A DNA stretch of 64,000 nt from Planctomycetota bacterium (GCA_016235865.1 JACRIK010000021.1:97226-161225); one strand, 5' to 3'; numbered from the stretch's first letter, positions 4,538-63,019 are shown. Numbers and translations are program-made. The notes: generated by a model from the letters alone, not told the origin.

Positions 4538-5125
4538 ATGTGGCAGATAGAAAAAACCACCAAACGCTGTCAGGAATGTAACTCAACTATAGAGGTCAGC
4601 CAGCATTATTTTTCGGCGCTGTTCCCTAATCCAACGGATAAAACAGGGGAGCCGCGCCTATTGCGCCGGGATTTTTGCGCTAATTGTTGGGAGCGGCGGA
4701 CCGCGGCCGGTGAAGAGCCACCCTTTTCCTTCTGGCAGACTGTCATAGAACCACCGGCTGAGCCGCCCAAGACCCCGCGCGAGGTTCTGCTTAATTTCTT
4801 TGATAACCTATTTAAGGAAGCAACTGAAGTGCCCGCGGCAGAGAATACGTCTGTGCCGGTGGTTCAGGACACCAGATTAAAATCCCAGGTAAAATACCTC
4901 TTTGCTTTGATTATGATGCGCAAGAAATTATTGCGGCTGAAGAGCCCGCTGACCCGGGACAATACCCGGTATCTGGTCCTGGAGCGGTTTGCGAAGCCGC
5001 AGCGGAGTCCCGATAACTTCGGGGGTGATGCTAAGGTTTATGAGGTGGCCGAAGTAAACATTTCGGATGAGGAGTTAGATTCCCTAAGGCAGGAATTTTC
5101 ACAACTCTTTGAATTCAGGATATAA
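4538..5125 (+). CDS. hypothetical protein with N-terminal CxxC...CxxC zinc-ribbon
   Basis: 195 aa ORF; CQEC...CANC; no recognisable family. Confidence 0.5.
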   Translation: MWQIEKTTKRCQECNSTIEVSQHYFSALFPNPTDKTGEPRLLRRDFCANCWERRTAAGEEPPFSFWQTVIEPPAEPPKTPREVLLNFFDNLFKEATEVPAAENTSVPVVQDTRLKSQVKYLFALIMMRKKLLRLKSPLTRDNTRYLVLERFAKPQRSPDNFGGDAKVYEVAEVNISDEELDSLRQEFSQLFEFRI

Positions 5126-6315: not shown

Positions 6316-9294
6316 TTATAGATATTTCTTCAATATTTTTCCAGTATAAGAGCGTTCTTGCCTGGCAATCTCTTCAGGGGTGCCGGAAGCGACTACTCGG
6401 CCGCCTTCATCACCGCCTTCGGGTCCCAGATCAATGATATAGTCAGCCATTTTGATGACGTGCATATTATGTTCGATGACCACAACGCTGTTACCGCGGT
6501 CCACCAGTCGATTGAGGACATTGAGCAGTTTATTGATATCGGAGAAATGCAGGCCGGTAGTCGGCTCGTCAAGTATGTAAAGGGTTTTATTGGTGGCGGT
6601 CTTGCCTAATTCAGCTGATAGCTTGACCCGCTGGGCTTCGCCGCCTGAGAGCGTGATGCTGGATTGGCCCAGGGCGATATAGCCCAGTCCGACGTTATCG
6701 AGTGTCTTGAGGATGCGCACGATATGCGGGAAGTTCTGGAAGAATTCCACGGCGGCTGAGACCTCCATTTCCAGGACATCGGCGATATTCTTACCCCGGT
6801 AGGTGATGTCCAGGGTCTCGCGGTTATATCTTTTGCCTTTGCACTGTTCACAGGTGATGTAGACATCAGGCAGGAAGTGCATCTCGATTAGTTTAGTGCC
6901 TTGGCCCTGGCAGTCGGCGCATCGGCCGGCCTTGAGATTAAAACTAAATCGGCCGGACTGGTAACCCCGTAATCGGGCTTCCTTAGTCATGGTAAAGACC
7001 TTGCGTATCTCGTCAAAGACGCCGGTATAAGTGGCCGGATTTGAACGAGGCGTCCGGCCAATCGGCGACTGGTCAATGATAATTACTTTGTCAACATGTT
7101 CGGCACCGATAATGTCGTCGCATTCACCTGAACGAATCCGGCTCCGGTAAATTTTCTTCATCAGCCCTTTATAGAGGATTTCATTGACCAGCGTGCTTTT
7201 GCCTGAGCCGGATACGCCGGTTACACAGGTAAAGCAACCTAATGGGATGGGTACATTGATGTCTTTCAGGTTGAATTCCCGGGCCCTGATGATGTTTAGC
7301 CAGTTATGTTCGCTCGCGCGGTCTCTGCGGAGTTCGCTGGCGCGGTCACTGCGGCCTTCTGATTTGTCATTTTTTATTTTATTATTAGCAGTATTTGGCT
7401 GCGGGAATAGATTGCGGTCAAAACGCCTTTTCTTTGGCACTTCTATTCTTAATTTATTGGTCAGGTATTGCAGGGTCAGGGAATGGTTATTATTATTTTC
7501 TCCTGAAGTTCCGTTAGGCGGTTTTACAGTATTATTATTGTTTGTCATTTTACCGTTTAGGACATCCTTACTCGGAGCCGAGATGATTACCTGTCCACCC
7601 CGGGTGCCGGCGCCCGGACCGACATCAATCAGATAATCCGATGCCCTGATGGTGTCTTCGTCGTGCTCAACTACAATGACTGTATTGCCTAAGTTTCTTA
7701 ATTTTATCAGGGTATTGAGCAGGCGTTGGTTATCGCGTTGGTGCAGTCCGATGGTTGGTTCGTCAAGGACATAGCAGACCCCGACCAGACCTGAACCGAC
7801 CTGGGAAGCCAGCCGTATCCGTTGGGCCTCGCCGCCTGAAAGCGTCAAACTGCGCCGGTCTAATGTCAGGTAGGACAGTCCCACGTCTATCAGAAATGAA
7901 AGGCGGTTCTTGATTTCCTTTAACGCCATCTGTCCGATAAGCGTCTGTTCAGCGGTTAGGACGAGTTTATCAAAGAAGTGATAGGCGTCCTTAACCGCCA
8001 TCTGAATCACCTCGGAGATATTTTTTCCGCCGATGCGGACGGCCAGTGGCTCTGGTTTTAAGCGCGCGCCTTTGCAGGTTGGGCAGGGCAGTTCGCTCAT
8101 ATATGAGTGTATCCGGTGCTTGACTCCTTCGCTCTGGGTTTTGTAGAACCGGTTCTCCAAGTCCGGTATCACGCCGGTAAAACTGCGTTTATATTTGGCT
8201 TCATCTGGTTGATTGGTGCCGTACATCAGGATCCGTTTCTTATCTTCAGGCAGGTTGTAGAAAGGCGCATCCATAGCTATGTTGAAATCGCCGGCGAACT
8301 CCTTGATAACATACGAATAATAAATAGCCATCCGGTGTCCGGATTTACGCCAAGCCTCGATGGCTCCGTTAGCCAGCGAGAGCGACTTGTCAGGCACAAT
8401 CAGGTCCATATCCAGTTCCATCCGTGTGCCCAGGCCGTTGCAGCGTGGGCAGGCGCCATAAGGTGAATTAAACGAGAATATCCGCGGGCTTAATTCCGAT
8501 AAACTTATCTGGCATTCCGGACAGGCAAAATGCTCCGAGAATACCAGGTCGGAAAACCGTTTGCCCTGGGGCTGATGCGAGATGATGACCAATCCTTCGC
8601 CTAATCTCAATGCGGTTTCGACCGAATCAGCCAGCCGGCTCTTTTCTATGCCGGCAGGCTCAACGCTCAGTCTGTCGATGACTATCTCGATATTATGACG
8701 TTTGTATTTATCCAGTTTAGGGACGGATGAGCCGAGTTCTATAACCTTGTTGTCAACCCGGACTCGGACAAAGCCATTGCGCCGGATGCGTTCAAAGACA
8801 TCCCGATGTTCGCCTTTTTTGCCTCGGATAATCGGAGCCAGGACAATAATCCGGGAATAAGCCGGGAATGATTGGATATGCTGGATAATCTGCTGGGCGG
8901 ACTGTTTGACAATTGGTTTATTGCACTTGGGGCAGAAGGGTTGGCCCAACCGGGCGAAGATAACGCGCAGATAATCATATATCTCGGTAGTGGTAGCCAC
9001 GATCGAGCGAGGTGTGCCGGTTCCGCCCCGTTGTTCTATAGAAATCGTGGGAGGCAGGCCTTCGATAGATTCCACATCCGGTTTGGCAATTTGTTCCAGG
9101 AACTGCCGGGCGTAGGCCGAGAGCGATTCGATATAACGGCGTTGTCCCTCGGCGTAAATGGTATCAAAAGCCAGGGAGGTCTTGCCTGAGCCGGAGACAC
9201 CGGTTACCACAATTAGTTTATCACGCGGGATATCAATGTTGATATTCCTGAGATTATGCTCCTTGGCTCCGCGTATGGATATATGATTGGTCAT
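6316..9294 (-). CDS. uvrA: excinuclease ABC subunit A (UvrA) with internal low-complexity/repeat insertion
   Basis: 992 aa; two ABC ATPase modules, Zn fingers; N-term '[42 protein letters not shown]'. Confidence 0.9.
7311..7356. repeat. dispersed repeat family B (modules X+Y) inserted in-frame in uvrA
   Basis: cgcgcggtctctgcggagttcgctggcgcggtcactgcggcc; translated '[13 protein letters not shown]' on minus strand. Confidence 0.85.
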
Positions 9295-15267: not shown

Positions 15268-16119
15268 ATGTTGCCGTCCTGGTTAAAACAGAATAAACCA
15301 TCGCTGGGCAAATCCATGGCAATTAATAATATCATCAAGAGTCATGGTCTTCATACGGTCTGCCAGAGCGCCAAATGCCCCAATATCTTCGAATGCTTTG
15401 CCAAAGGCACGGCTACCTTTATGATTCTGGGCGATGCCTGCACCAGGCACTGCCGGTTCTGCTCGGTCAAGAAACAAGCGCCTCTGCCGTTGGCTTCCAA
15501 TGAAGCGAAGGAAGTGGCGGATGCCTGTTGCAAGATGAAACTAAAACATGTCGTGATTACTTCGGTTACCCGCGATGATTTGCCGGACGGCGGGGCAGGC
15601 GTATTCTATGATACGATTATGGAAGTGCGTAAGACGTCTCCTGGAGTGGCTATTGAGGTCCTGACTCCGGATTTCCAGGGTAATCAAACAAGCATCCGCC
15701 AGGTTGTCTCAGCCCAACCCGATATATTTAATCACAATATCGAAACCGTGCCCCGGCTTTACTCCGAGATTAGACCCGAAGCGGATTATCAGCGCTCATT
15801 AAAACTGCTGGCCTATGTTAAGGAGTTAAACCCGGCCATGCGGACCAAGTCAGGCCTGATGTTGGGATTAGGAGAAAGAGAAGACGAGGTGCTGTCGGTG
15901 CTCAAAGACCTGAGGGTCGTGGATTGCGATATGGTTACCATCGGTCAATACCTGCGCCCGTCATTAAGCGCCGGAACCGTGGAGGTGGCCAGATTCGTCC
16001 CGCCCGAGGAATTCGAGGCATACCGCGCCAAGGCATCAGAGATGGGTTTTAAGGCCGTGGCCTCGGGTCCTTTTGTTCGCTCGTCATACATGGCTGCGGA
16101 GTTGTACGGAGTTCGCTAG
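15268..16119 (+). CDS. lipA: lipoyl synthase
   Basis: 283 aa; radical-SAM CxxxCxxC (CTRHCRFC) plus N-terminal auxiliary cluster cysteines. Confidence 0.9.
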   Translation: MLPSWLKQNKPSLGKSMAINNIIKSHGLHTVCQSAKCPNIFECFAKGTATFMILGDACTRHCRFCSVKKQAPLPLASNEAKEVADACCKMKLKHVVITSVTRDDLPDGGAGVFYDTIMEVRKTSPGVAIEVLTPDFQGNQTSIRQVVSAQPDIFNHNIETVPRLYSEIRPEADYQRSLKLLAYVKELNPAMRTKSGLMLGLGEREDEVLSVLKDLRVVDCDMVTIGQYLRPSLSAGTVEVARFVPPEEFEAYRAKASEMGFKAVASGPFVRSSYMAAELYGVR

Positions 16120-16138
16120 CGCGGTCACTGCGGTGTTC
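16096..16138. repeat. repeat family B module Y overlapping lipA stop codon
   Basis: gcggagttgtacggagttcgctagcgcggtcactgcggtgttcc. Confidence 0.85.
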
Positions 16139-16275
16139 CGATAATTTCGGGGAAGAATTAGGATTAACCCCTCGACTTCGCTCGGGATAAGACATTGTAA
16201 CGTTCTCCCGCCCCAAAGGGACGGCATAACTAACAATCTCTAAAGTTTAGCCGCTAAACAACCGAGAGTCATATA

Positions 16276-16452
16276 ATGGGTTTTTTCTTTTATCTTATCG
16301 GATTTCTTGCCATTGGAGTGTTTTTTGTTATGCTTTGGAAAACCAGGTCCCGGAAAGAGGCCATGAGGCAAGAAGACGAGTGGATGCAGAGTTTGCCTCC
16401 TGAAGAGTGGGGTAGTAGTGAACATGAAGAAGAAGACGAAGAAAAAGATAGC
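16276..16452 (+). CDS. possible small membrane protein (58 aa, below ORF-track cutoff)
   Basis: ATG at 16276, hydrophobic 'GFFFYLIGFLAIGVFFVMLW' followed by acidic tail; overlaps annotated topA start in another frame. Confidence 0.25.
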
Positions 16453-18988
16453 TAAGGCTTCTGGTGCAGGCGCTAAGGCCAAACCGGCCACCAAGATTAA
16501 GTTCAAGTCGCCAGTTGATGCCTCTGGCGCCCCTGAAGCAAAATCAGAACCGGTAGCTAAGGTCAAAAAAGCCAAGGTGGTGTTGCCGGCAACGAAAGGT
16601 AAGTCACTGGTGATTGTCGAATCGCCGGCCAAAATCAAAACCATCAGCAAGATTCTGGGCAGCGATTATGTCATCACCTCGTCTTACGGCCATATCCGTG
16701 ACCTGCCCAAGAGCAAGCTCGGCATAGATATCGAGGACAATTTCAAGCCCGGCTATATCATCATGCGCAAGCAGATAAAGAATGTCAACGCGCTGAAAAA
16801 GATGGCGGCCGCGTCCAATGGCGTGTATCTGGCCACTGATCCGGACCGGGAAGGCGAGGCCATTGCCTGGCACCTGTCCGAGATTCTGGGCATGCCGCCA
16901 GATAAGTTCTGGCGGGTGAGTTTTGACGAGATTACCGCGCCGGCCGTTAAGGAGGCGTTCAGCCATCCCCGTAAGATTTCCATAACCCTGGTCAATGCCC
17001 AGCAGACCCGGCGTTTCCTGGACCGGATTATGGGCTATAAATTATCACCGCTCCTCTGGGACAAGATAACCCGGGGCCTGTCAGCCGGCCGGGTCCAGTC
17101 CGTGGCGCTTCGGCTGGTGGTGGAACGGGAAAGGGCCATCCGGTCATTCAAGCCCCAGGAGCACTGGAAAATAACGGCTGACCTGTCCCACGCGATGCCG
17201 CATGGCTGTCGCGCCCATCAGGGCAAGGACATATTTAACGCGACACTTTACAAACTTAACGACTCCAATGTCGGCAGTCCGATGGACGGCAGCGCCAATA
17301 TCTGGATTGGCTCGGAAACCGAATCCAAGAAACTGGTCGAGCGCCTCGGGAAAAGCGATTTCAAGGTGCTGGGTATAACCGAACGCGAAAGCAACCAGTA
17401 TCCGGCGCCGCCGTTTATCACCAGCACGCTCCAGCAGACCGCGTCCATCAAGCTCAATTTCAGCCCGCGCAAGACCATGATGATTGCCCAGCAATTATAT
17501 GAAGGCGTGGAACTGCCGGAAGGCCCGGCCGGCCTGATTACCTATATGCGCACCGACTCGGTCCGGGTCAGCGAGGTGGCTATCAAGGAATGCCGGAGTT
17601 TTATCGCTAAGCACTTCGGAGAGGGGTTGCTTAATCCGGAAGCCCGGCATTACAAGCCCAGCAAACAGTCCCAGCAGGCGCACGAGGCCATCCGGCCGAC
17701 CTATCCGGCCAAGATGCCGGATGATATCGCCCAATACCTGACCAGAGACCAGTATAAACTCTACACCCTTATCTGGAAACGGTTCACGGCCACCCAGATG
17801 AAACCGGCGGCCTGGAAGAGCAAATCAGTGGAGATTGAATCGCAGTTGGCGCCAGCACTGGAACTGGAGGTCTTCTCCAATGACAAGCGGCACAAGCTCA
17901 TCGCCGAAAAGATACTCGCCTCAGTTGGGTCCGGCCAGAACGGGGCAGTGCTGGAAAAAATCATAACCATATTAAGCCGGAACAAGCAGGACGATGAGAC
18001 GGCCCGGAAAATCATTGAAGCCCTGGGGCAGAATGTGGAAGACAAGGCATTAACCGCCCGGATAATCGGCATCATGGATGAAACCGTGGACGGTGCTCTG
18101 ATACTTGAGAAGATGAACGTAGCCAGATGCCTTTGGAGCGCCAATGAACGCCGGCTGGTGGCTCCGGGATTTATGACCCTCTATAATCCCGAGGAGCAGT
18201 TATTGCCCGGCTTAAAAGAATCCGGCAAGCTGGACGTAGCGCAAATCATCCCGGCCCAGTCGTTTACCGAACCGCCGCCTTATTACAACGAGGCATCGCT
18301 GGTCAAGGTCCTGGAAAAATACGGCATCGGCCGCCCGTCCACCTACGCGCCGATTATTGCCACCATCCAGGACCGGGGCTATGTCATCAAGCGGGCCCGG
18401 CAGTTGACGCCGACTGATTTAGGCCTGCTGGTCAACGACAAACTCGTGCCGTTCTTTGAGGATATCATCAATACCCAGTTCACGGCCCGGATAGAAGAGG
18501 AACTGGATTTGATTGAGGAAGGCCAGAAGGAATTGGTCCCGACATTAAAGGAATTCTACGCGCCGTTTGCCAAGGACTTGGAAAAGGCCCAGGCCGAGAT
18601 GACCAGCGAAAAGGGCAAGGAGAGCGGCGGGAAATGCCCACTGTGCAATAGTCCGATTGTCGAACGCTGGTCCCGGTTCGGCAAATTCCTATCCTGTTCG
18701 GCATTCCCGGAATGCCGGCATACCGCATCGCTCAAGCCAAAGGCTGAGCCGGAAAAGACCGACCAGGTCTGCGAAAAATGCGGCAAGCCCATGGTCATCC
18801 GGTTCAACCGCCGGCGCAGAACCCGGTTCATCGCCTGCTCCGGATATCCGGACTGCAAAAACGCCAAGCCGTTCAAGAAACCCGGTGAAGAGGCAGAAGC
18901 GGCCCCGGAGCCGGCCCGGAAACAAAGCCCGTCGGTTGAAGAGACCGAAGCCAACGGCACTTCAGCAGAAGAGACAGCCGCTAACTAA
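16418..18988 (+). CDS. topA: DNA topoisomerase I
   Basis: 856 aa; TOPRIM 'VIVESPAKIKTI', C-terminal Zn ribbons; Lys-rich N-terminal extension (true start uncertain). Confidence 0.9.
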   Translation: MNMKKKTKKKIAKASGAGAKAKPATKIKFKSPVDASGAPEAKSEPVAKVKKAKVVLPATKGKSLVIVESPAKIKTISKILGSDYVITSSYGHIRDLPKSKLGIDIEDNFKPGYIIMRKQIKNVNALKKMAAASNGVYLATDPDREGEAIAWHLSEILGMPPDKFWRVSFDEITAPAVKEAFSHPRKISITLVNAQQTRRFLDRIMGYKLSPLLWDKITRGLSAGRVQSVALRLVVERERAIRSFKPQEHWKITADLSHAMPHGCRAHQGKDIFNATLYKLNDSNVGSPMDGSANIWIGSETESKKLVERLGKSDFKVLGITERESNQYPAPPFITSTLQQTASIKLNFSPRKTMMIAQQLYEGVELPEGPAGLITYMRTDSVRVSEVAIKECRSFIAKHFGEGLLNPEARHYKPSKQSQQAHEAIRPTYPAKMPDDIAQYLTRDQYKLYTLIWKRFTATQMKPAAWKSKSVEIESQLAPALELEVFSNDKRHKLIAEKILASVGSGQNGAVLEKIITILSRNKQDDETARKIIEALGQNVEDKALTARIIGIMDETVDGALILEKMNVARCLWSANERRLVAPGFMTLYNPEEQLLPGLKESGKLDVAQIIPAQSFTEPPPYYNEASLVKVLEKYGIGRPSTYAPIIATIQDRGYVIKRARQLTPTDLGLLVNDKLVPFFEDIINTQFTARIEEELDLIEEGQKELVPTLKEFYAPFAKDLEKAQAEMTSEKGKESGGKCPLCNSPIVERWSRFGKFLSCSAFPECRHTASLKPKAEPEKTDQVCEKCGKPMVIRFNRRRRTRFIACSGYPDCKNAKPFKKPGEEAEAAPEPARKQSPSVEETEANGTSAEETAAN

Positions 18989-19103: not shown

Positions 19104-19943
19104 ATGAATAATGAACTTGTGCCGGTTACAAAAATAGCCGTTTTTCGCGGCCGGAAAATACGCAAAACCATCCACAAAAACGAATGGTGGTTTTCTATAG
19201 AAGATGTAGTTCGGGTCCTTACAGATTCATTACAACCAGCCGGATATATTAAGGATATGCGGCGCCGGGACCCGGAGATAGCCAAAGGGTGGGGGCAAAT
19301 TGCCACCCCCCTTTTGATTCAAACAGCCGGCGGTCCGCAAAAGGTGAATTGCGCTAATACCGAAGGCATGTTCCGTATTATCCAGTCCATTCCCTCGCCC
19401 AAAGCCGAGCCGTTCAAACGCTGGCTGGCTAAGGTGGGCTACGAGCGGGTCCGGGAGATAGAAGACCCGGAACTCGGCACCAAACGCACCCGGGCATTGT
19501 ATAAAGCCAAGGGCTACAGCGATGACTGGATAGAAAAACGGATGCGCGGCATTGCCATCCGCGAGGAACTGACCGACGAATGGAAAAAGCACGGAGTTGA
19601 AAGGGACAAGGAATACGAGATTCTGACCGCGGAAATCTCCCAAGCGACATTCGGGCTTACCCCGAGCCAGTATAAGAAACTCAAAAACCTGAAGCGTCAA
19701 AACCTGCGCGACCATATGACCGACCTGGAACTGATTTTCTCTATGTTAGGCGAGGCGTCAACCACCCAGATTACCAAGGTGGAACATCCGGACGGATTTG
19801 TGGAAAACAAGAAAGTGGCCCGGCGGGGCGGCAATGTGTCCGGAATAGCCCGCAAGAAACTGGAGCAGGAAACCGGCGGCCGGGTGGTCAGTCCGCAAAA
19901 CTATCTGGCAAATCAGCAGAATAAACGGCTAAAAGATAAGTAA
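19104..19943 (+). CDS. DinD-like DNA-damage-inducible protein with Bro-N-like N-terminal domain
   Basis: 279 aa; N-term 'KIRKTIHKNEWWFSIEDVVRVL' Bro-N-like; C-terminal region resembles E. coli DinD. Confidence 0.6.
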   Translation: MNNELVPVTKIAVFRGRKIRKTIHKNEWWFSIEDVVRVLTDSLQPAGYIKDMRRRDPEIAKGWGQIATPLLIQTAGGPQKVNCANTEGMFRIIQSIPSPKAEPFKRWLAKVGYERVREIEDPELGTKRTRALYKAKGYSDDWIEKRMRGIAIREELTDEWKKHGVERDKEYEILTAEISQATFGLTPSQYKKLKNLKRQNLRDHMTDLELIFSMLGEASTTQITKVEHPDGFVENKKVARRGGNVSGIARKKLEQETGGRVVSPQNYLANQQNKRLKDK

Positions 19944-19948
19944 TGGCA

Positions 19949-20047
19949 AAACCCGGTGAAGAGGCAGAAGCGGCCCCGGAGCCGGCCCGGAAACAAAGCC
20001 CGTCAGTGGAAGAGACCGAAAGCAGCGACGAAGCTACTAACTAACGA
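19949..20047. repeat. direct repeat R (orphan copy of topA 3' tail)
   Basis: copy of aaacccggtgaagaggcagaagcggccccggagccggcccggaaacaaagcccgtc...gagaccgaa...ctaactaacga. Confidence 0.85.
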
Positions 20048-20163: not shown

Positions 20164-22026
20164 ATGAATTTTCTGCGTAAAATATTTAAGAAGAAAGCGC
20201 AGGTTGATCCTGCCAATGATCCTAACATGGTAAAGGCCTATGATGGATATGGTCGGGAAATATTTATCTCCAAACAGCAATGGAAGGACAAGGTACTCCT
20301 GAAGAATCTAGAGGAGAAACGCAACAATCCTAATCAGCTTTATGATTGGCTTTTCTTGGCACTGAAAGATGGATTTGTGCAAGATATTGTTCCTTATGCC
20401 GAGCATTTATGGCGCACTGACCCTATTCCATCCAGGGGAGCCGCAGTACTCGGTATTGTCTATATGAAGAATAACCGCTTGGATGAGGCGGAACGAGTAT
20501 TAAATGATTTCCTGTCAGCACATGGCGATAATGGGGTTGTTCTGACTAACTTGGCAAAGGTATACGATAAACGGGGGGATAAAGCAAAAGCCGAATCAAT
20601 TCTTTGGCATGCCTTGGAGGTTGACCCTAATCAGGAAAATGGGCTTGCTTGGTATATTGCAATTCAGAGTGAGCGGGGAGGCGAAGCGTCGGTACTCGAT
20701 GCCTATCATCATATCGCCGCTTGGCCCAAAAGCTGGAGGGTCCAGCTTTGGTTGGCGCGTGAGGCGCTTGCACGCAAAGATTTGCCAGCTGCGGAGGCAT
20801 TTTACGCGGAAGTATTTGCCAGGGCTGAGCGTCCGGTTCCCGATTATGTCCTTACACAAATAAGTGGAGACTTAGGTAAGAACGGATATCTGGCAGAGAT
20901 GTTTCGTCTGGTCGAGCCTCATTTTGACCCGGCTATTCACGGCTTTAATGTTGGAAATAATCTTATAATGGCCAATCGTGAACTTGGTCGCACAGATATT
21001 GCCCGGCGTATTCTAAATCAGCTTTATGCCCAGAAACGTCCTGATTGGCAGCATGCGTTAAAGTACTGGGACACTGAACTTGCCAAAGACGAAGTAGCGC
21101 GCAAGGCGCAACAAAACCCCGGACAATCTATTGTTTTCATTTCAACAGAAGGTCCGTTATGGGCAAGTAAGGAATCCCCATTTGCAGTTCTCATGCCGGC
21201 TAAATCTGGTAACACACCGCAGATTGCCGTTTTGGGAAGCATGGCCTTGTTTTCGGAGTTATCCAAAAAGCCTGTGCCTCAACTCAGCGATGCTCCGGGC
21301 CGTATCAGCCGGATTGTTGCTCTTTTTCTGGCTGAAAAAATCCACCTTCAAACCGATGCGGTTGGTATAGCTTTAACTCCTTGGGCGCAAAAACTAGGGT
21401 TTGCTGTTTTTGGTAATCCCTACGGCGACAAGGATCTCTGTGAAGTTGCATGTAAGAGTGTGAAAGTTCCGCATTTTATCGTTGCTGTCAATTTTGATGC
21501 TACCCAGTTAAAATGGAAAATGATACTACGCTTATTGAGGGTGAGTGATTGTGTGCGTGTTGCAGAAGAACAGATTGAAGCCGATCCGCTGAATCCCGGA
21601 CCAGCTATTGAGCTTTTAGCTCAAACGCTTCAACAGTTGCTTGCTAAATACGCCGGGGTGCATATTACGGCACATCCGCAATGGTACCAGAATCTATCCG
21701 GACCGGATTTATCTGACTATCTTCTGCGGCTTGAGCAACAACTTGCAGTAATATGTAAAAATCTCGATTTCCTCGAAGGAGGAGGTTTGTTCGGGGAACA
21801 TGAAATCATTGATGGTGTTTTGCAACTCTGTCTAAGTCAGCCGGCAAGCCAATTGGTTAGAATGGTTCTGGCCCAAACGCTCCGGCAGATGAGCAAATTG
21901 CACCCGGAACTTATTTCCGAATATAAAGATAAGATTAATTTACTCCAACGGACTCATCTTCTGACAGGAGAAGTTGGCGAATTGATTAATAAAGCCATTA
22001 ATCAGACAATGACACGGACGGCTTAG
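20164..22026 (+). CDS. hypothetical protein, TPR-like N-terminal region; atypical codon usage
   Basis: 620 aa ORF; codon usage (cgt/gca/ctt, lower GC3) differs from neighbours. Confidence 0.55.
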   Translation: MNFLRKIFKKKAQVDPANDPNMVKAYDGYGREIFISKQQWKDKVLLKNLEEKRNNPNQLYDWLFLALKDGFVQDIVPYAEHLWRTDPIPSRGAAVLGIVYMKNNRLDEAERVLNDFLSAHGDNGVVLTNLAKVYDKRGDKAKAESILWHALEVDPNQENGLAWYIAIQSERGGEASVLDAYHHIAAWPKSWRVQLWLAREALARKDLPAAEAFYAEVFARAERPVPDYVLTQISGDLGKNGYLAEMFRLVEPHFDPAIHGFNVGNNLIMANRELGRTDIARRILNQLYAQKRPDWQHALKYWDTELAKDEVARKAQQNPGQSIVFISTEGPLWASKESPFAVLMPAKSGNTPQIAVLGSMALFSELSKKPVPQLSDAPGRISRIVALFLAEKIHLQTDAVGIALTPWAQKLGFAVFGNPYGDKDLCEVACKSVKVPHFIVAVNFDATQLKWKMILRLLRVSDCVRVAEEQIEADPLNPGPAIELLAQTLQQLLAKYAGVHITAHPQWYQNLSGPDLSDYLLRLEQQLAVICKNLDFLEGGGLFGEHEIIDGVLQLCLSQPASQLVRMVLAQTLRQMSKLHPELISEYKDKINLLQRTHLLTGEVGELINKAINQTMTRTA

Positions 22027-22077
22027 TGATACGACTTTCTAGTCCAGGGACACAACAAATTATCCTCCATCCTTACA

Positions 22078-22455
22078 GCGACCATAGAGTATCCCCTAAG
22101 CGGGGGCGGTCTATCCCCTAAGCGGGGATGGGCTATCCCCTAAGCGGGGAGGGGCTATCCCCTAAGCGGGGACGGGCTATCCTCTAAGCGGGGAGGGACT
22201 ACCCCCTAAGCGAGGGTGGACTATCCCCTAAGCTGGGAGGGGCTACCCCCTAAGCGGGGTGGGGCTACCCCCTAAGCGGGGATGGGCTATCCCCTAAGCG
22301 AGGTGGGGCTATCCCCTATGCGAGGTAGGGCTATCCCCTAAGCGAGGTGGGACTATTCCCTAAGCCGGGACGGGCTATCCCCTAAGCGGGGACGGACTAT
22401 CCCCTAAGCCGGGAGGGGCTACCCCCTAAGCGGGGATGGGCTATCCCCTATGCGA
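22078..22455. repeat. tandem array, ~17 copies of 22-bp unit CTATCCCCTAAGCGGGGATGGG
   Basis: head-to-tail copies with point variation, no spacers; stops in all frames. Confidence 0.9.
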
Positions 22456-22661
22456 GGATGGGGTATCACGGGTGCGGGGATGGGGGGAGGGGGGAGGGGG
22501 GATACCCCACCCCCCACCGTCTGAACCGGTTTTTGAGATAATAACTTTATGGATAAATGGTTACGCCAAAACCCGAGTGATTTTGGTAGCAGATTTCAGC
22601 CCGGATTACTTATTTAACGAGACATTAGACGACTTTTGGGGGTCGATATTGGCCTTTTGTT

Positions 22662-23715: not shown

Positions 23716-24717
23716 TTAAGTGCCAACCGTCTCAAGGTCAGGTTTTTTGTCGCCCTGATTACACTTCTTGAGCAGTTTTTCCCATTCCTTATCCACATTG
23801 GCCTGGAGTTTGTTGATAAGCTCCTGGTTCGGTCCGCTCCGGTGGGTGCTCCCGGTCTCTGCGGAGTTCCCGCCCTTGGCGAAGATGTGCTTGAACCGGC
23901 CCTGGGGCTTGAGCCATTCGGTGATGGGTTTCTTTTCCTTGGGGATATAATTGAGTTTGTATTCCCCGTTTTCCACTTCATAAAGCGGCCAGTAGCAGGT
24001 ATCAGCCGCAATCCGGGCCAGGTTGATGGAGTCCTTCATCTCGTTTCGCCAGCCCCGGTGGCAGGGCGAGAGGATATTCAGGAAGCTCGGGCCGTCAGCG
24101 GCCAGTGCCTTTTTGACCTTGGTCATCAGGTCGCGCCAATGGGCCGGCGTGGTCTGGGCCAGGTAGGGGATATTATGGGCTGCCACGATGCCGGTCAGGT
24201 CCTTGCGGAAGACCGGTTTGCCGTAACTGGCCGAGCCGGCCGGGGTAGTGGTGGTGGAAGCGCCCATTGGGGTGGCGCCGGAGCGCTGGATGCCGGTATT
24301 CATATAGGCCTCGTTGTTGTAGCAGACATAGAGGAACTTGTGGCCGCGTTCCAATGCGCCGGAAAGCGCCTGCAAGCCGATATCAAAGGTCCCGCCGTCG
24401 CCGCCCACGGCGATGAATTTAATGGTCTTGGTAACCTTGCCCTGGCGTTTGAGCGACTGGTAAGCGGCCTCGATGCCGGAGATGGTCGCGGCCGAATTCT
24501 CGAAGGCGCTGTGAATCCAGTTGCATTTCCAGGCCGTATACGGATAGGTGGCGGTGGCCACATAGAGACAGCCGGTAGCCACGGACATAACCACCGGGTC
24601 TTCGGCGGCCATCAATATCTGGCGGAAGGTGGTTCCGGCGCCGCAACCGGCGCAAAGCCGGTGTCCGGAGACGAATGTTTCTTCCTTCTTGGATAATTCT
24701 TTTAAACTTAGTGCCAT
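23716..24717 (-). CDS. porB: pyruvate:ferredoxin oxidoreductase beta subunit (TPP-binding)
   Basis: 333 aa; 2-oxoacid:ferredoxin oxidoreductase beta family. Confidence 0.85.
   Translation of the reverse strand: MALSLKELSKKEETFVSGHRLCAGCGAGTTFRQILMAAEDPVVMSVATGCLYVATATYPYTAWKCNWIHSAFENSAATISGIEAAYQSLKRQGKVTKTIKFIAVGGDGGTFDIGLQALSGALERGHKFLYVCYNNEAYMNTGIQRSGATPMGASTTTTPAGSASYGKPVFRKDLTGIVAAHNIPYLAQTTPAHWRDLMTKVKKALAADGPSFLNILSPCHRGWRNEMKDSINLARIAADTCYWPLYEVENGEYKLNYIPKEKKPITEWLKPQGRFKHIFAKGGNSAETGSTHRSGPNQELINKLQANVDKEWEKLLKKCNQGDKKPDLETVGT
23828..23874. repeat. repeat family B module X inside porB 3' coding region
   Basis: ttcggtccgctccggtgggtgctcccggtctctgcggagttcccgcc. Confidence 0.85.
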
Positions 24718-24758
24718 AAAATTCCTTTCTTACTTAATTTTTGCGAAACGCCCCTTCC

Positions 24759-24827
24759 GTCATTCCCGTGTAAACGGGAATCCAGTAATCACATGGGGTC
24801 TGGATTCCTGCTTTCGCAGGAATGACA
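24759..24827. repeat. compound palindromic element (ATTCCC-N8-GGGAAT + ATTCCT-N8-AGGAAT) between porB and porA
   Basis: gtcattcccgtgtaaacgggaatccag...tggattcctgctttcgcaggaatgaca. Confidence 0.85.
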
Positions 24828-24838
24828 TAAAAGGGAAA

Positions 24839-26074
24839 TTATTCTCTTACCGTTAAATAGTCAAACACCTTATCAACCTTGCCGGCCTTGGCCACATCAA
24901 ACAATTTCTGGAATACCTTGTTGATGTCTTCCAGCCGGATATCGCGTCCGCCGATTCCATAGATGTAATTAATCATCAGGGGCTGTTTGGGCAGTCCGTA
25001 CATGGCAGACCTGACCTCGGTAAAGGTCGGGGTGCCGCCGGCGCCGAAGGCATCGACCCGGTCCATAACCGCGATGGCCTTGAGATGTTTCAGCGCGTTC
25101 TTGATTTCCTCTGCCGGGAACGGCCTGAAGATGCGGGGCTTGAGCAGCCCGACCTTGACGCCCTTGGCCCGGAGTTCATTGACCACCATCTTGGCCACGC
25201 CGGCCGCGGAATTGATGATGACCAGCGCGTATTCGGCGTCATCCAATTTGTAGGATTCGAACAGCCCGTATTTCCGGCCGGACATCTTGGCGAATTCCTC
25301 GGCCACCTCAAGTATCTTGGCCTTGCTGTTTATAATCGCCTCGGAATGCTGGCGTTTGTGTTCGGTATAATAATCCTGCAGGGCGCAGGCGCCGATAGTC
25401 ACCGGGTTATCCACATCCAGCAGTGAATTTATGGCTTTGAACTCGCCCACGAATTTCCTGACCGCCTCGTCATCGAGCAGGTCAACCCGTTCCACGGAAT
25501 GGGTGGTGATGAATCCGTCCATCGAGACCATGACCGGCAGGCGGATGTCCATATCTTCGCCGATGCGGACGGCCTGGATGAGGTTGTCATACATCTCCTG
25601 GGCGTTTTCGGAGTATATTTGGATCCAGCCGGAATCGCGTCCGCCCATGGTATCATCGTGCCCGCAGTGGATATTTAGCGGCGCGCTTAAGGAGCGGTTG
25701 GCTACATACATTATCACCGGTGTGCGCAGTCCGGCGGCGATGGGCAGCATCTCCCACATCAGGGCGAATCCGGCTGATGAGGTGGCGGTCATGGTCCGGG
25801 CGCCGGCGGCTGAAGAGCCGATACAGGCGCTCATGGAACTATGCTCGCTTTCCACCGGCACGTATTGGGTCTTGACCAGTCCGTTGGCCACGAACTCGGC
25901 GAATTCCTCCACGGCCTCGGTCTGGGGCGTAATCGGATAGGCGGCCACCACGTCCGGATTAATCTGGCGCATGGCCTCGGATACCGCGTTGTTTCCGGTC
26001 ATTGCAGCTATTCGGTTCGCTCCGGTAGGTGCTCCCGGTCTCTGCGGAGTTCTGGCGTTTTTGTTGTCTGTCAT
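24839..26074 (-). CDS. porA: pyruvate:ferredoxin oxidoreductase alpha subunit
   Basis: 411 aa; POR alpha family; repeat-derived N-terminal extension. Confidence 0.85.
   Translation of the reverse strand: MTDNKNARTPQRPGAPTGANRIAAMTGNNAVSEAMRQINPDVVAAYPITPQTEAVEEFAEFVANGLVKTQYVPVESEHSSMSACIGSSAAGARTMTATSSAGFALMWEMLPIAAGLRTPVIMYVANRSLSAPLNIHCGHDDTMGGRDSGWIQIYSENAQEMYDNLIQAVRIGEDMDIRLPVMVSMDGFITTHSVERVDLLDDEAVRKFVGEFKAINSLLDVDNPVTIGACALQDYYTEHKRQHSEAIINSKAKILEVAEEFAKMSGRKYGLFESYKLDDAEYALVIINSAAGVAKMVVNELRAKGVKVGLLKPRIFRPFPAEEIKNALKHLKAIAVMDRVDAFGAGGTPTFTEVRSAMYGLPKQPLMINYIYGIGGRDIRLEDINKVFQKLFDVAKAGKVDKVFDYLTVRE
26011..26057. repeat. repeat family B module X inside porA 5' coding region
   Basis: ttcggttcgctccggtaggtgctcccggtctctgcggagttctggcg (about 2 mismatches vs 23828-23874). 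Confidence 0.85.
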
Positions 26075-26134
26075 CTTAACGTCCCTTCTATAAGATACTT
26101 ACTTTTTTTACCGCGTCATTCCCGCCCCGTGTTT

Positions 26135-26227
26135 GTCATTCCCGCGAAAGCGGGAATCCACGGGATAAACTCCAGCGGGAATCTATACTTCTGGATTCCT
26201 GCCTACGCAGGAATGACAGAGAGTGAA
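26135..26227. repeat. compound palindromic element between porA and porD
   Basis: gtcattcccgcgaaagcgggaatcca...ctggattcctgcctacgcaggaatgaca. Confidence 0.85.
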
Positions 26228-39163: not shown

Positions 39164-39198
39164 ATATAAAACGTTATTCTGTCATTCCAGTCCCGCTT

Positions 39199-39330
39199 GT
39201 CATTCCCGTGAAAACGGGAATCCAGAGGGATAAACTCCGGCGGGAAGCCAGTCCCTCTGACGGGATGGTGGGAACCGTAAGCCCAAAGATGTCTGGATTC
39301 TGTGTCAAGCACGGAATGCCAGTTTAATAG
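39199..39330. repeat. compound palindromic element (partly degenerate) between ftsB-like and ruvB
   Basis: gtcattcccgtgaaaacgggaatccagagggataaactccggcgggaagcc...tggattctgtgtcaagcacggaatgcc. Confidence 0.7.
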
Positions 39331-41619: not shown

Positions 41620-41697
41620 TTCGCGGATGACACAGATTAAAAATAATCAGTGAAATCTGTGAACACCGCAGTGACCGCGACAGCGAAATCTGTGGTT
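41620..41697. repeat. AACCACAGAT...ATCTGTGGTT terminal-inverted-repeat element
   Basis: 10-bp perfect TIRs, internal cacagatt/aatctgtg sub-repeats. Confidence 0.8.
41663..41693. repeat. repeat family B module Y (reverse orientation), intergenic, nested in AACCACAGAT element
   Basis: RC = ttcgctgtcgcggtcactgcggtgttcac. Confidence 0.8.
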
Positions 41698-41709
41698 ACG
41701 AGGTTTCCC

Positions 41710-44575: not shown

Positions 44576-44745
44576 TGATTAAAGCAACCCCCTGGACGGC
44601 TCAGGGGGACTGACCGATGACTGAAGCAACCCCCTGGATGACTCAGGGGGACTGACGGATGACTGAAGCAACCCCCTGGATGGCTCAGGGGGGCTGCGGA
44701 ATGACTGAATAAACCCCCTGGACGGTCCAGGGGAGCCATTTGCGG
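44574..44745. repeat. 4 tandem copies of ~42-bp unit each containing a CCCCCTGG..CCAGGGGG hairpin
   Basis: tgactgaagcaaccccctggatgactcagggggactgacgga x4 with point variation. Confidence 0.85.
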
Positions 44746-44788
44746 AGCGACAGCGGAGTCCCGACCAAATCGGGGAAGGAGTTTTGAT

Positions 44789-54460: not shown

Positions 54461-55873
54461 TCATTTCCATTCGATAACAGGTGGAATATCCTGAACGCTA
54501 AGCCAGGTTTTATTCGCAAGCGTTAGGGTGGTTCGTGTGTTATCAGGAAGAGTATAGGTAATTGTTTTTTTGCCATTTATGACTTCTTGTACCTGCGCAT
54601 CCGGGTATAATTTATTCAGAACCTTTTGATACGCATTAAACGATTCGTAGGCATCGTTATCTGAATCCCATATGGTCGAGAGGAATAAAACAATATCCTT
54701 GGTTTTATTGTTTTGGAGCAGGAAATATTTATCGCCATCCCAGCCCTCCGATGCCTCGCCGGCTTTTCCTTTGGCATAACTGCTGAATAGAATCCAAAAG
54801 CCGAATTCCCCCATGGTGTTTTCGGCCAGTATGGTCCATTCATCGCCAGCCTGGGGCGGTGTAATCGATTCAGGGGTATCGCGCGGTTCGGCCAATTTTT
54901 TGGTATGAATCATCTGTTCGGTTGATATAGGCGGATTCTTATATGTCCCGCTAACCAGCTGCCAGTTTTTTTGCTTCTCATCAATGGTCACCATGGTATG
55001 AATGGAGTAGGCGCCGTGGTAATAAGGCGCTATCAGCAGCCAGAAAAGATAATCCGGCACATCCTTGAGGGCTATTATGGATTCATATAAGTCAGGCGCT
55101 GTTTCTTTATACTGTTCAGCCATTGATGTTGATAACTCCAGTAAATCTTTGCGCCCCAGATTTTTGTAGCGGCTGAAAGCCATTTCCATCATCGGGCTGT
55201 CCGGCGCAAAGGTGATGCCCATTTTCTCTAACTGGGCAATGGTCATGACATAAGTGGCTTCTCCTTCTACCAGATATCTGATAGCGGTTTCCTGGTCGCT
55301 ATTATTCGCTGTTTTGATCAGTTTTCCCAGGTCATAATACTGGTCCTGGAGGGCGTGAGTCAGTTCGTGGATAACCATGGTTTCCATTTCCATCTGCGGC
55401 ATATTGATTTTTATGAAATACATACACTTGGTTTCGGGGTCATAATAAGCTCCGGCCTGGCTGACCAGCAGGTTTTCCAGTCCTTTTTTCATGTCATAAT
55501 TCTTGGGTAACAATCCCAGTTTAGATAATGCCAGCTGGTTCCATCTGCTTTCCTCATCAAATGATTTATCCAGGTCTTTTTTCACGAAAGTCCTAAATTC
55601 CTCAACGGATTGTACCGCTCCTTTGACATCAGACTTAAACTTCTTGCCGCTGATTCTTTCCACGATTTCCTGGCAGGATTTCAGGTTGACCGGGATTCCC
55701 GGCGTAGCAGCGGCGGAGTCCGCCGGCGCGGTCACTGCGGTTGTTCCCCGAAGGCTTTCGGGGGGCGCAGCGGCTGATTTGTCATCCGGTTTATTACTGC
55801 CGCCAGCGCAGCTAATAGAGGCGATAGAAATTAGTGTCAATGCTAATACTAAGGCAATATGTTTTTTATGCAT
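54461..55873 (-). CDS. putative lipoprotein zinc metallopeptidase (HExxH)
   Basis: 470 aa; lipoprotein signal 'LISIASISCAG'; 'MVIHELTHALQDQ' HExxH motif. Confidence 0.5.
   Translation of the reverse strand: MHKKHIALVLALTLISIASISCAGGSNKPDDKSAAAPPESLRGTTAVTAPADSAAATPGIPVNLKSCQEIVERISGKKFKSDVKGAVQSVEEFRTFVKKDLDKSFDEESRWNQLALSKLGLLPKNYDMKKGLENLLVSQAGAYYDPETKCMYFIKINMPQMEMETMVIHELTHALQDQYYDLGKLIKTANNSDQETAIRYLVEGEATYVMTIAQLEKMGITFAPDSPMMEMAFSRYKNLGRKDLLELSTSMAEQYKETAPDLYESIIALKDVPDYLFWLLIAPYYHGAYSIHTMVTIDEKQKNWQLVSGTYKNPPISTEQMIHTKKLAEPRDTPESITPPQAGDEWTILAENTMGEFGFWILFSSYAKGKAGEASEGWDGDKYFLLQNNKTKDIVLFLSTIWDSDNDAYESFNAYQKVLNKLYPDAQVQEVINGKKTITYTLPDNTRTTLTLANKTWLSVQDIPPVIEWK
55709..55765. repeat. 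repeat family B module Y inside lipoprotein peptidase gene, plus poly-C/G hairpin
   Basis: gcggcggagtccgccggcgcggtcactgcggttgttccccgaaggctttcgggggg. Confidence 0.85.
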
Positions 55874-62920: not shown

Positions 62921-63019
62921 CGTCATTTCCGTGTAAACGGGAATCCAGTATTAGGTTTTTGGATTCTTCCTGAGTTTAATACGTAAATGCCTGGACTCCT
63001 GCCTTCGCAGGCGTGACAA
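62921..63019. repeat. compound palindromic element between GAF-HD-GYP gene and valS
   Basis: gtcatttccgtgtaaacgggaatccag...ctggactcctgccttcgcaggcgtgaca. Confidence 0.75.

What the first reader, a model, noticed from the sequence alone, without database searches (positions are those of the whole stretch)
16096..16138. Family-B repeat supplies the lipA stop codon
The lipA ORF ends ...AAELYGVR* inside gcggagttgtacggagttcgcTAGcgcggtcactgcggtgttcc, so the TAG comes from the inserted element. The native C-terminus (normally ...SYMA/DE) appears extended by repeat-derived residues. This shows the element can remodel gene termini.
Basis: partly seen in the sequence, partly recalled or inferred. Interest (0 to 1): 0.65.

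Follow-up and report, generated by a model that had tools for sequence, protein, structure and literature searches.

The report
Nested mini-repeats rewrote lipA's end
A 56-base composite of two tiny dispersed repeats was inserted into the last codons of the lipoyl synthase gene, so the enzyme's final seven residues and its stop codon now come from the repeat; this is a clean, stepwise case of a phenomenon already known from other bacteria.

Summary
lipA (15268-16119) ends ...SSYMAAELYGVR-TAG, and the TAG (16117-16119) lies inside a repeat that has 5 copies in the window against 0 expected. Syntenic loci from related Planctomycetota settle the history. The ancestral tail was ...SSYMAEELGLKFS(C/R)-TAA, 15 nt upstream of a small conserved ORF (L099, L002). 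A 73-nt repeat was inserted first; L094 keeps that stage, with tail EELGL+IPRPRSG*. In the window's lineage a 56-nt composite (16096-16151) was then inserted after the Ala codon of SSYMA. Both pieces of the old tail survive as non-coding remnants (16152-16167 and 16241-16257, including the old TAA). The composite is a ~35-nt hairpin repeat carrying a nested 24-nt unit, GCTNNCGCGGTC[A/T]CTGCGG[T/A]GTTC. That unit always follows TTC, is often tandem, and was found in 64 distinct copies across related genomes. The stop is T plus the unit's variable dinucleotide (AG here); only 5 of 64 copies would give a stop in this frame. Small repeats rewriting gene 3' ends are already known (Coxiella QMITEs, Rickettsia RPEs). 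What is new is the 24-nt unit family, which also sits in frame inside real genes such as uvrA, rpoN and an aminoacyl-tRNA synthetase gene.

The parts
15268..16119 (+). lipA (lipoyl synthase) CDS, 283 aa. Native sequence runs to the Ala codon GCT at 16093-16095; codons 16096-16119 are repeat-derived.
   Evidence: (100% match to P0001)
16096..16151 (+). Insert 1: a 56-nt composite repeat, absent from all seven other syntenic lipA loci examined (L002, L003, L004, L094, L096, L097, L099). The boundary is ambiguous by 1-2 nt because of G's at the right junction.
   Evidence: Multiple alignment and the 3'-end sequences. The same composite occurs at unrelated loci: L011 7588, L025 2952/L046 339, L086 216.
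16096..16114 (+). Left arm of the ~35-nt hairpin repeat ('H'), GCGGAGTTGTACGGAGTTC. It encodes A-E-L-Y-G-V. Compared with 9 other H copies it carries two substitutions (TCG>TTG, GCA>GTA) and a 1-nt deletion.
16115..16138 (+). Nested 24-nt unit GCTAGCGCGGTCACTGCGGTGTTC, the core of 'Family B', preceded by TTC at 16112-16114.
16117..16119 (+). Current lipA stop codon TAG. It is unit position 3 (T) plus the unit's variable dinucleotide NN (AG in this copy).
   Evidence: NN = AG in 2 of 64 copies; AT is the commonest
16139..16151 (+). Right arm of H, CGATAATTTCGGG. Together with the TTC at 16136-16138 it forms the small hairpin CCGA-TAATT-TCGG.
16152..16167 (+). Remnant 1 of the ancestral lipA tail, GAAGAATTAGGATTAA (EELGL + A). 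It is now non-coding, out of frame, and identical to L099.
16168..16240 (+). Insert 2 ('X'): a 73-nt hairpin-forming repeat flanked by TAA direct repeats (16165-16167 and 16241-16243). L094 has it at the same site (58 of 63 and 46 of 46 aligned positions identical in the two alignment windows that cover it), and there it supplies the LipA tail IPRPRSG and the stop TAA.
   Evidence: A related copy lies at another locus, L051 12545-12607. The minus strand folds at -13.4 kcal/mol, z -3.6.
16241..16257 (+). Remnant 2 of the ancestral tail, TAAAGTTTAGCCGCTAA ((L)KFSR*), with the ancestral stop TAA at 16255-16257.
16276..16455 (+). Conserved small ORF (59 aa) between lipA and topA. It lay 15 nt after the lipA stop in the ancestral arrangement and now lies 156 nt after it.
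7308..7355 (+). Two tandem 24-nt units (each with its preceding TTC) of the same family, inside uvrA, antisense and in frame.
41661..41688 (-). Intergenic copy of the unit upstream of trmD, inserted between CACAGATTTC repeats.
55718..55746 (+). Diverged copy of the unit inside ORF 54461-55873 (minus strand), just after its signal-peptide-like N-terminus.
4990..5024 (+). H repeat without a nested unit, i.e. an 'empty' H.
   Evidence: (D11)
44742..44775 (+). A second H repeat without a nested unit.
   Evidence: (D11)

Best explanation
The 3' end of lipA was rewritten twice by insertion of small non-coding dispersed repeats. Ancestrally LipA ended ...SSYMAEELGLKFS(C/R)-TAA, 15 nt before a small ORF. 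First, a 73-nt hairpin repeat (X) was inserted at a TAA inside codons L-K, giving the tail EELGL+IPRPRSG with a stop from X; L094 preserves this state. Then, in the window's lineage, a 56-nt composite was inserted directly after the Ala codon of SSYMA. The composite is a ~35-nt hairpin repeat H carrying a nested 24-nt unit. Translation now runs from native lipA into H (A-E-L-Y-G-V), enters the nested unit (R) and stops at TAG, which is formed by the unit's T plus its variable dinucleotide AG. The catalytic core through RSSY is untouched. The new tail is 9 residues after RSSY and reproduces the family's x-A-x-E-L-[FY] pattern, so the enzyme most likely remains functional. Shown: the insertions, their order, their repeat-family membership, and the origin of the stop. 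Inferred: that the copy-specific changes (S>L, the 1-nt deletion that puts TAG in frame, NN = AG) were selected after insertion; and that the 24-nt unit is a trans-mobilised element that inserts 3' of TTC. Because it ends in TTC it creates its own next target, which would explain the tandem arrays. The mobilising enzyme is unknown.
For: The alignment of five syntenic loci shows a 56-nt gap in all others exactly between atggcT and gaagaatta, and a 73-nt block shared only with L094. The 3'-end sequences of L004, L096 and L097 also lack the composite. The window retains GAAGAATTAGGATTAA and TAAAGTTTAGCCGCTAA, which are contiguous in L099/L002 and encode EELGLKFS(C/R)* there. Six of the nine nearest LipA orthologues end in LKFS(R/C), and the outgroup L004 has no insert. 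The composite recurs at unrelated loci in other genomes (L011, L025/L046, L086), and H occurs without the nested unit (window 4990 and 44742, L074, L029, L002). The 24-nt unit has sharp boundaries in 64 distinct copies, confined among genomes to three related Planctomycetota MAGs; the other genome hits are single chance matches. All ten T-subtype copies, which were not forced by the search pattern, are preceded by TTC. Tandem arrays have period 24 and mix subtypes. NN is variable, so only 5 of 64 copies would give a stop in this frame. The tail-length and motif statistics of the LipA family are, and the alignment to solved LipA structures runs through SSYxAxxLY. An independent assembly of the locus is identical.
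Against: In the lipA core L094 is nearer to L002 (88%) than to the window (82%). The shared X insert therefore implies recombination between lineages, loss in L002, or repeated site-specific insertion; the 'stage 1' reading is the simplest but is not proven. No transposase or other mobilising gene was identified, and the unit has no terminal inverted repeats and only weak predicted structure (-3.7 kcal/mol, z -1.7). Whether TTC is a duplicated target or part of the element cannot be decided. There is no expression or activity evidence that the remodelled LipA is functional.
Confidence: 0.87

Rival explanations
1. AAELYGVR* is the native LipA C-terminus, and its similarity to the repeat is coincidental or reflects repeat capture of lipA sequence.
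For: AELY fits the LipA family consensus after RSSY (x-A-[EGA]-E-[LVFM]-[FY]). It also aligns with M. tuberculosis LipA SSYRAGRLY. L004's native tail AAELMNTL has the same length.
Against: The native EELGL codons are still present, intact, 56 nt downstream, followed by the native KFSR*. The whole 56 nt, not just the coding part, matches composites at unrelated loci in other genomes. No orthologue ends this way.
Confidence: 0.02
2. The filled state is ancestral, and the 'empty' loci (L002, L099, L004, L097) arose by precise excision or deletion of the repeats.
For: Small repeats flanked by short direct repeats (TAA; TTC) can be lost by slippage. L094 groups with L002 in the lipA core yet carries X.
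Against: Deleting both inserts would have to restore an in-frame tail that is homologous across six orthologues and the outgroup. The 56-nt insert is unique to the window. L003 and L096 carry a different element at a different junction.
Confidence: 0.05
3. The insertion inactivated lipA, which is now a decaying pseudogene with a fortuitous stop.
For: No functional data. The C-terminal x-A-x-E-L-[FY] region is conserved and was physically replaced.
Against: The ORF is full length with all cluster-binding motifs and scores 373-403 bits against LipA models. The tail length is within the family range, and the replacement recreates the conserved residues. lipB-lipA synteny is intact.
Confidence: 0.06
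4. Assembly artefact: repeats caused a chimeric join at the lipA 3' end.
For: The region is packed with dispersed repeats, which are a known cause of MAG mis-assembly.
Against: Both flanks are syntenic with seven related loci (efp-lipB-lipA-small ORF-topA). A Logan assembly is identical over 1852 nt. L094, from another sample, shares insert 2.
Confidence: 0.02

Closest known systems
Coxiella burnetii QMITE1/QMITE2 (PMC5896051)
   Same: Small non-coding repeats overlap the 3' ends of functional genes by 1-50 bp and alter C-terminal composition without much change in protein size. In strain Dugway, EnhC takes its last 33 residues from QMITE2. All affected functional genes are hit at the 3' end.
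   Different: QMITEs are larger elements with terminal inverted repeats and direct repeats. Here the element supplying the stop is a 24-nt unit nested in a ~35-nt hairpin repeat without TIRs, in Planctomycetota. The step-by-step series (empty, one insert, two inserts) is preserved in relatives.
Rickettsia palindromic elements, RPEs (reviewed in PMC10969869)
   Same: Repeats inserted in frame inside unrelated housekeeping genes, tolerated as extra peptide segments. The 24-nt unit does this in uvrA, rpoN, a class I aaRS gene and others, usually read as EHRSDR[DA]SE.
   Different: RPEs are ~100-150 bp and palindromic. The unit here is 24 nt (8 codons), about six times smaller, and weakly structured.
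Cyanobacterial small dispersed repeats, SDRs (Elhai et al. 2008 Genome Res 18:1484; cited in PMC3116915; paper not held, features given from memory)
   Same: Size class (21-27 nt), dispersed, short forms nested inside longer repeats, presence/absence differences between related genomes, and an unknown mobilising mechanism.
   Different: A different phylum, and the sequences were not compared because the paper is not held. As I recall, SDRs are mainly intergenic, whereas 35 of 64 copies here lie in long open frames.
REP / REPIN elements mobilised by RAYT (TnpA_REP) transposases (PMC3116915, PMC6006769)
   Same: Short (20-40 nt), abundant, lineage-specific repeats with sequence-specific insertion next to a short target, as in IS200/IS605 relatives.
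   Different: REPs are clear imperfect palindromes, extragenic, and typically paired as REPINs. The unit has only two 3-bp mini-hairpins, is often intragenic, and no RAYT was looked for or found.

Membership tests
Lipoyl synthase LipA | Score above the curated cut-off of the LipA equivalog model | tested here: met
   TIGR00510 373.6 bits vs cut-off 310.25; NF009544 403.5 bits vs 210
Lipoyl synthase LipA | N-terminal CX4CX5C, radical-SAM CX3CX2C and C-terminal RSSY (serine ligand of the auxiliary cluster; established from LipA structures 4u0p/5exj) | tested here: met
   CQSAKCPNIFEC, CTRHCRFC and RSSY are present in the translation; it aligns end to end with 4u0o and 5exi
MITE | Terminal inverted repeats | tested here: not met
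   The 24-nt unit and the H composite have no TIRs. Insert 2 (X) has internal inverted repeats, GACATTGTAAC / CTAACAATCTC.
MITE | Target-site duplication | tested here: inconclusive
   TTC is on both sides of the unit and TAA on both sides of X, but a 3-nt duplication cannot be told apart from an element end
MITE | Size about 50-500 bp and related to a parent IS | tested here: not met
   Unit 24 nt, H ~35 nt, composite 56-57 nt, X 73 nt; no parent IS seen in the window ORFs scanned
REP/REPIN | Imperfect palindrome forming a stable hairpin | tested here: not met
   Unit MFE -3.7 kcal/mol, z -1.7, two 3-bp stems. One stem shows linked A..T / T..A variants: 53, 10, and 1 exception.
REP/REPIN | Extragenic location | tested here: not met
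   35 of 64 copies lie in open frames of 150 aa or more, including frames with Pfam domains
REP/REPIN | Associated RAYT gene | not tested
   Only 30 of 56 window ORFs were scanned, none a transposase; whole genomes were not available
Small dispersed repeats (SDR-like very small mobile repeats) | 21-27 nt dispersed unit with sharp boundaries | tested here: met
   24 nt; the flanks are unrelated in 64 copies
Small dispersed repeats (SDR-like very small mobile repeats) | Short form nested within longer repeats; filled and empty sites | tested here: met
   H is found with and without the unit; the unit also lies inside CACAGATTTC and GAGATTCTTCG...AGAATGACA repeats; lipA is empty versus filled
Small dispersed repeats (SDR-like very small mobile repeats) | Sequence relationship to the described cyanobacterial SDR families | not testable with these tools
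   The paper (PMC2527708) is not held
RPE-like in-frame intragenic repeats | Length a multiple of 3, and open reading frames that allow in-frame insertion into genes | tested here: met
   24 nt; 5 of 6 frames are open; two in-frame units in UvrA lie within a 34-aa insertion relative to 3ux8; units also in RpoN, an aaRS and an NtrC-type activator
RPE-like in-frame intragenic repeats | ~100-150 bp palindromic element of Rickettsia | tested here: not met
   Size and taxon differ

The most novel reading that the evidence does not exclude
The 24-nt unit is a genuinely mobile element of minimal size (8 codons). It inserts 3' of TTC and regenerates its own target, which would explain the tandem arrays. 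It spreads through a clade of groundwater Planctomycetota both between genes and in frame inside essential genes (uvrA, rpoN, aaRS), where selection keeps the hydrophilic antisense reading EHRSDRDS. At gene ends it, and the repeats it nests in, repeatedly write new C-termini and stop codons. If its mobilising enzyme is not a known transposase type, this would be a new mode of micro-insertion that shapes protein loops and termini.
Probability: 0.25. Interest if true: 0.7.

Novelty: new member of a known kind. Interest (0 to 1): 0.42.

Why it matters
This is an unusually complete natural record of how selfish mini-repeats edit protein ends. Related genomes preserve the empty site, the one-insert stage and the two-insert stage, and each stage has a different repeat-encoded tail and stop. 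Relatives carry parallel events: a different element in lipA of L003/L096, and an H repeat supplying the topA stop in L002. This shows that C-termini of housekeeping enzymes turn over by insertion rather than point mutation. It also warns annotators that terminal residues in such MAGs may be repeat-derived. The 24-nt unit family gives a second lineage, after cyanobacterial SDRs, in which the unsolved question of how elements this small move could be studied using filled and empty sites.

Tried and rejected
1. Hairpin-loop targeting of the unit. In reconstructed empty sites the junction lies in a hairpin loop in 21 of 56 cases, against 39% for random TTC sites, so there is no enrichment. The sites are only modestly more structured (-13.0 vs -10.4 kcal/mol).
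2. Stable structure of the unit or composite. The energies are not significant: z -1.2 to -1.9, and z -0.6 for the whole region as RNA.
3. Known RNA family or terminator in 15900-16500: none.
4. Replication- or transcription-linked orientation bias. The 30:5 antisense bias holds only for copies inside ORFs. Non-coding copies between co-directional genes are 9 antisense and 6 sense. The bias is therefore better explained by selection on the reading frame.
5. Other copies of insert 2 in the window: none. One relative was found in L051.
6. A transposase in the window. The 30 ORFs scanned with Pfam gave none; the other 26 ORFs were not scanned.
7. CRISPR-like origin was considered and dropped. No regularly spaced arrays appear in any locus.
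8. An uptake-signal-type motif was considered and dropped, because copies differ from empty sites by whole 24-nt insertions and form tandem arrays.
9. The Elhai 2008 SDR paper could not be read.

Full report
**1. The observation**

The quoted sequence is at 16096-16139. The ORF 15268-16119 is lipoyl synthase. It scores 373.6 bits against TIGR00510 (cut-off 310) and 403.5 bits against NF009544. It carries the CX4CX5C, CX3CX2C and RSSY motifs and aligns over its full length with solved LipA structures. It follows lipB, ends ...SSYMAAELYGVR, and stops at TAG 16117-16119. The core GTTCGCTNGCGCGGTCACTGCGG occurs five times in the window with at most 2 mismatches, against zero in 100 shuffles. A Logan assembly of SRR12113407 (L101) is identical over 1852 nt.

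**2. Comparative evidence: where the ancestral stop is**

A protein search gave close orthologues at 81-89% identity. Their contigs are syntenic: PBP, efp, lipB, lipA, a small 56-63-aa ORF, then topA.

- In L099, L002 and L097 lipA ends ...SSYMAEEL(G/R)LKFS(C/R)-TAA, or EESLLKFSR in L097.
- In L099 and L002 the small ORF starts 15 nt after the stop. The outgroup L004 (AAELMNTL*) has a 7-nt gap.
- Six of the nine nearest orthologues share the LKFS(R/C) tail.
- A five-way alignment shows two extra blocks in the window.

The first block is 56 nt (16096-16151), between atggcT and gaagaatta, and is unique to the window. The second is 73 nt (16168-16240), flanked by TAA on both sides, and is shared only with L094.

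The ancestral tail survives in two non-coding pieces. These are GAAGAATTAGGATTAA (16152-16167, identical to L099) and TAAAGTTTAGCCGCTAA (16241-16257), which carries the old stop at 16255-16257.

**3. Two successive remodellings**

L094 carries only the 73-nt block. Its LipA reads EELGL and then runs into the insert, giving IPRPRSG-TAA, so its stop too is repeat-derived. The window adds the 56-nt block upstream. That makes both the native EELGL codons and the X-derived tail non-coding.

The series is therefore:

- L099/L002: EELGLKFSC*
- L094: EELGLIPRPRSG*
- window: AELYGVR*

One caveat applies. In the lipA core, L094 is closer to L002 (88%) than to the window (82%). Downstream of the insert, L094 and the window are nearly identical. 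The shared insert therefore implies some recombination or lineage sorting.

L003 and L096 carry a different element directly after gaagaatta. It gives FAVRTQ* and LVVQTK*, with stops again from the insert. L097 has yet another insertion between the lipA stop and the small ORF. This short stretch is a recurrent landing site.

**4. What the inserted sequence is**

A scan of genome representatives found the core in multiple contigs of three Planctomycetota MAGs: JBBTIZ01 (Hainich H41-bin223_1), JBFMDM01 and JAZDFB01. All other hits were single chance matches in GC-rich genomes. A metagenome scan added 48 loci, mostly Hainich groundwater.

Aligning 64 distinct copies shows a sharply bounded 24-nt unit, GCTNNCGCGGTC[A/T]CTGCGG[T/A]GTTC. 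Its properties:

- It is always preceded by TTC. This includes all ten copies of the T subtype, which the search patterns did not force.
- It often forms tandem arrays of period 24 that mix the two subtypes.
- The subtypes differ by linked changes, CAC..GTG versus CTC..GAG: 53 and 10 copies, with 1 exception.
- Because the unit ends in TTC, insertion 3' of TTC recreates the target. This would explain the tandem arrays, but it is an inference.

The unit is frequently nested in other small repeats: CACAGATTTC repeats, GAGATTCTTCG...AGAATGACA hairpins and CCCGCC/GGCGGG stems.

The lipA block is one such composite. It consists of a ~35-nt hairpin repeat H, consensus TGCGRAGYCGCARCGGAGTYC-CGATWAYTTCGGGG, with the unit nested after GGAGTTC. 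H occurs without the unit at window 4990 and 44742, and in L074, L029 and L002. The same composite occurs at unrelated loci in L011, L025/L046 and L086.

Insert 2 has a relative at another locus (L051 12545-12607). Its minus strand forms a significant hairpin, z -3.6.

**5. Origin of the stop codon**

The TAG is unit position 3 (T) plus the variable dinucleotide NN. NN is AT in 21 copies, GT in 15, GG in 8 and AG in only 2. Only 5 of 64 copies (AG, GA, AA) would give a stop in this frame.

The consensus composite is 57 nt and open in the lipA frame. It would have produced a 19-residue in-frame insertion followed by the old tail.

The lipA copy instead has a 1-nt deletion (GTTGTA-C versus GTCGCAAC) and two substitutions in the translated left arm. 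None of the nine other H copies has these. Together they give A-E-L-Y and bring TAG into frame.

Across the 119 listed LipA sequences carrying RSS[YFM] (the window's own included), the pattern after RSSY is x-A-[EGA]-E-[LVFM]-[FY], with a median tail of 11 residues and a range of 2-39. The repeat-encoded AELY fits this pattern, and the new tail of 9 residues is within range. I infer, but cannot show, that these copy-specific changes were selected and that the enzyme is active.

**6.

Its refutation test fails to refute the claim, because no orthologue ends in the same residues.

The claim of an extension beyond a native ...SYMA/DE end is wrong. Nine native residues were replaced by seven.

**7. 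Behaviour of the unit elsewhere**

Of the 64 copies, 35 lie in open frames of at least 150 aa (the random expectation is 78%). Thirty of those 35 are antisense to the ORF. They are mostly read as EHRSDR[DA]SE, or NTAVTA[IP]AN in the composites.

The host ORFs are real genes:

- UvrA in the window. Two tandem units lie within a 34-residue insertion relative to 3ux8, whose flanks are contiguous.
- A class I aminoacyl-tRNA synthetase.
- RpoN, between the activator-interacting and core-binding domains.
- An NtrC-type activator, between the AAA lid and the HTH.
- TPR, Fe-S and AIRS_C proteins.

Non-coding copies show no orientation bias: 9 antisense versus 6 sense. The coding bias therefore looks like selection for a tolerated hydrophilic reading. 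The lipA copy is unusual in being sense and in the rarely used third frame.

**8. Mechanism of spread**

The mechanism of spread is not resolved.

- The unit has no terminal inverted repeats and only two 3-bp mini-hairpins (-3.7 kcal/mol, z -1.7).
- Insertion sites are not enriched in hairpin loops.
- No Rfam family or terminator matches the region.
- No transposase was seen among the 30 window ORFs scanned.

I favour trans-mobilised insertion 3' of TTC, with modest confidence.

**9. Comparison with known systems**

- Coxiella QMITE1/2 overlap the 3' ends of many functional genes, and QMITE2 supplies the last 33 residues of EnhC in strain Dugway (PMC5896051).
- Rickettsia RPEs insert in frame into housekeeping genes (PMC10969869).
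- REP/REPINs are short repeats mobilised by RAYTs (PMC3116915, PMC6006769).
- Cyanobacterial SDRs are 21-27-nt nested mobile repeats (Elhai 2008, cited in PMC3116915; not readable here).

The lipA event is a new instance of a known phenomenon. The 24-nt unit resembles SDRs in size and nesting, and RPEs in its in-frame intragenic insertion. It meets the definitions of neither MITE nor REP.

**10. Verdict**

The finding is real, and its central interpretation is right. It documents a two-step, repeat-driven replacement of a protein C-terminus. The general phenomenon is known, so interest is moderate. The higher-value lead is the undescribed 24-nt unit family.

Noticed in passing
window 7308-7355 (uvrA, 6316-9294, minus strand): Two tandem 24-nt units lie in frame and antisense inside UvrA. 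They encode [16 protein letters not shown] within a 34-residue insertion just before the second ATPase module. The flanks are contiguous in solved UvrA 3ux8/2r6f.
   Followed up: partly
L002 6618-6650 (topA 3' end): An H hairpin repeat (gtagacgcaacggagtcccgaTAAtttcgggg) sits in the topA tail. Its loop TAA is the called topA stop (6640-6642), and the ancestral gctaacTAA remains about 30 nt downstream. This is a second gene whose stop is supplied by the same repeat family.
   Followed up: partly
window 18878-18956 and 19949-20027: A 79-nt direct repeat (94% identical) of the topA 3' end flanks a 1.07-kb segment carrying a BRO-N-domain ORF (19104-19943). This looks like an insertion into the topA tail with duplication of the target, so the topA C-terminus may also have been replaced.
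   Followed up: no
L003 3849-3975 and L096 2374-2500: A different small element is inserted directly after gaagaatta of lipA. It gives the tails FAVRTQ* and LVVQTK*. The L003 block also contains a reversed variant of the 24-nt unit (gagaccgcgctagcgaa).
   Followed up: partly
L097 2012-2096: Another ~85-nt insertion lies between the intact lipA stop and the start of the small ORF. The lipA/small-ORF spacer is a recurrent landing site for repeats.
   Followed up: no
window 55718-55746 (ORF 54461-55873, minus strand): A diverged unit lies inside a lipoprotein-like ORF just after its signal peptide. It is read antisense as TAVTAPADS and is followed by a CCCCGAAGGCTTTCGGGG hairpin inside the coding sequence.
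   Followed up: no
window 23828-23869 and 26011-26052: The two neighbouring 2-oxoacid:ferredoxin oxidoreductase subunit genes share a 42-nt segment (95% identical), located near the 3' end of ORF 23716-24717 and near the 5' end of ORF 24839-26074 (both minus strand). It ends in CCCGGTCTCTGCGGAGTTC, which resembles the 3' half of the T-subtype unit.
   Followed up: no
window 22011-22538: A long tandem array of a 22-nt period (at least 16 registers at 64-85% identity) lies at the end of, or downstream of, the TPR-protein ORF 20164-22026.
   Followed up: no
window 24758-24827, 26134-26218, 39198-39227, 62921-63018: Another dispersed family, GTCATTCCCGYGWAAACGGGAATCC, is paired with TCTGGATTCCTGCNTWCGCAGGAATGACA (hairpin repeats).
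   Followed up: no
window 44570-44733: Three to four tandem 42-nt copies (GACTGAYGAYTRAAGCAACCCCCTGGAYGRCTCAGGGG) lie immediately upstream of an unnested H repeat (44742-44775). The genome also carries CACAGATTTC-type repeats (41640-41700).
   Followed up: no
L094 822-947: In L094 the called lipA start lies 125 nt after the lipB stop, against 4 nt in the window. There may be another insertion at the lipB/lipA junction.
   Followed up: no
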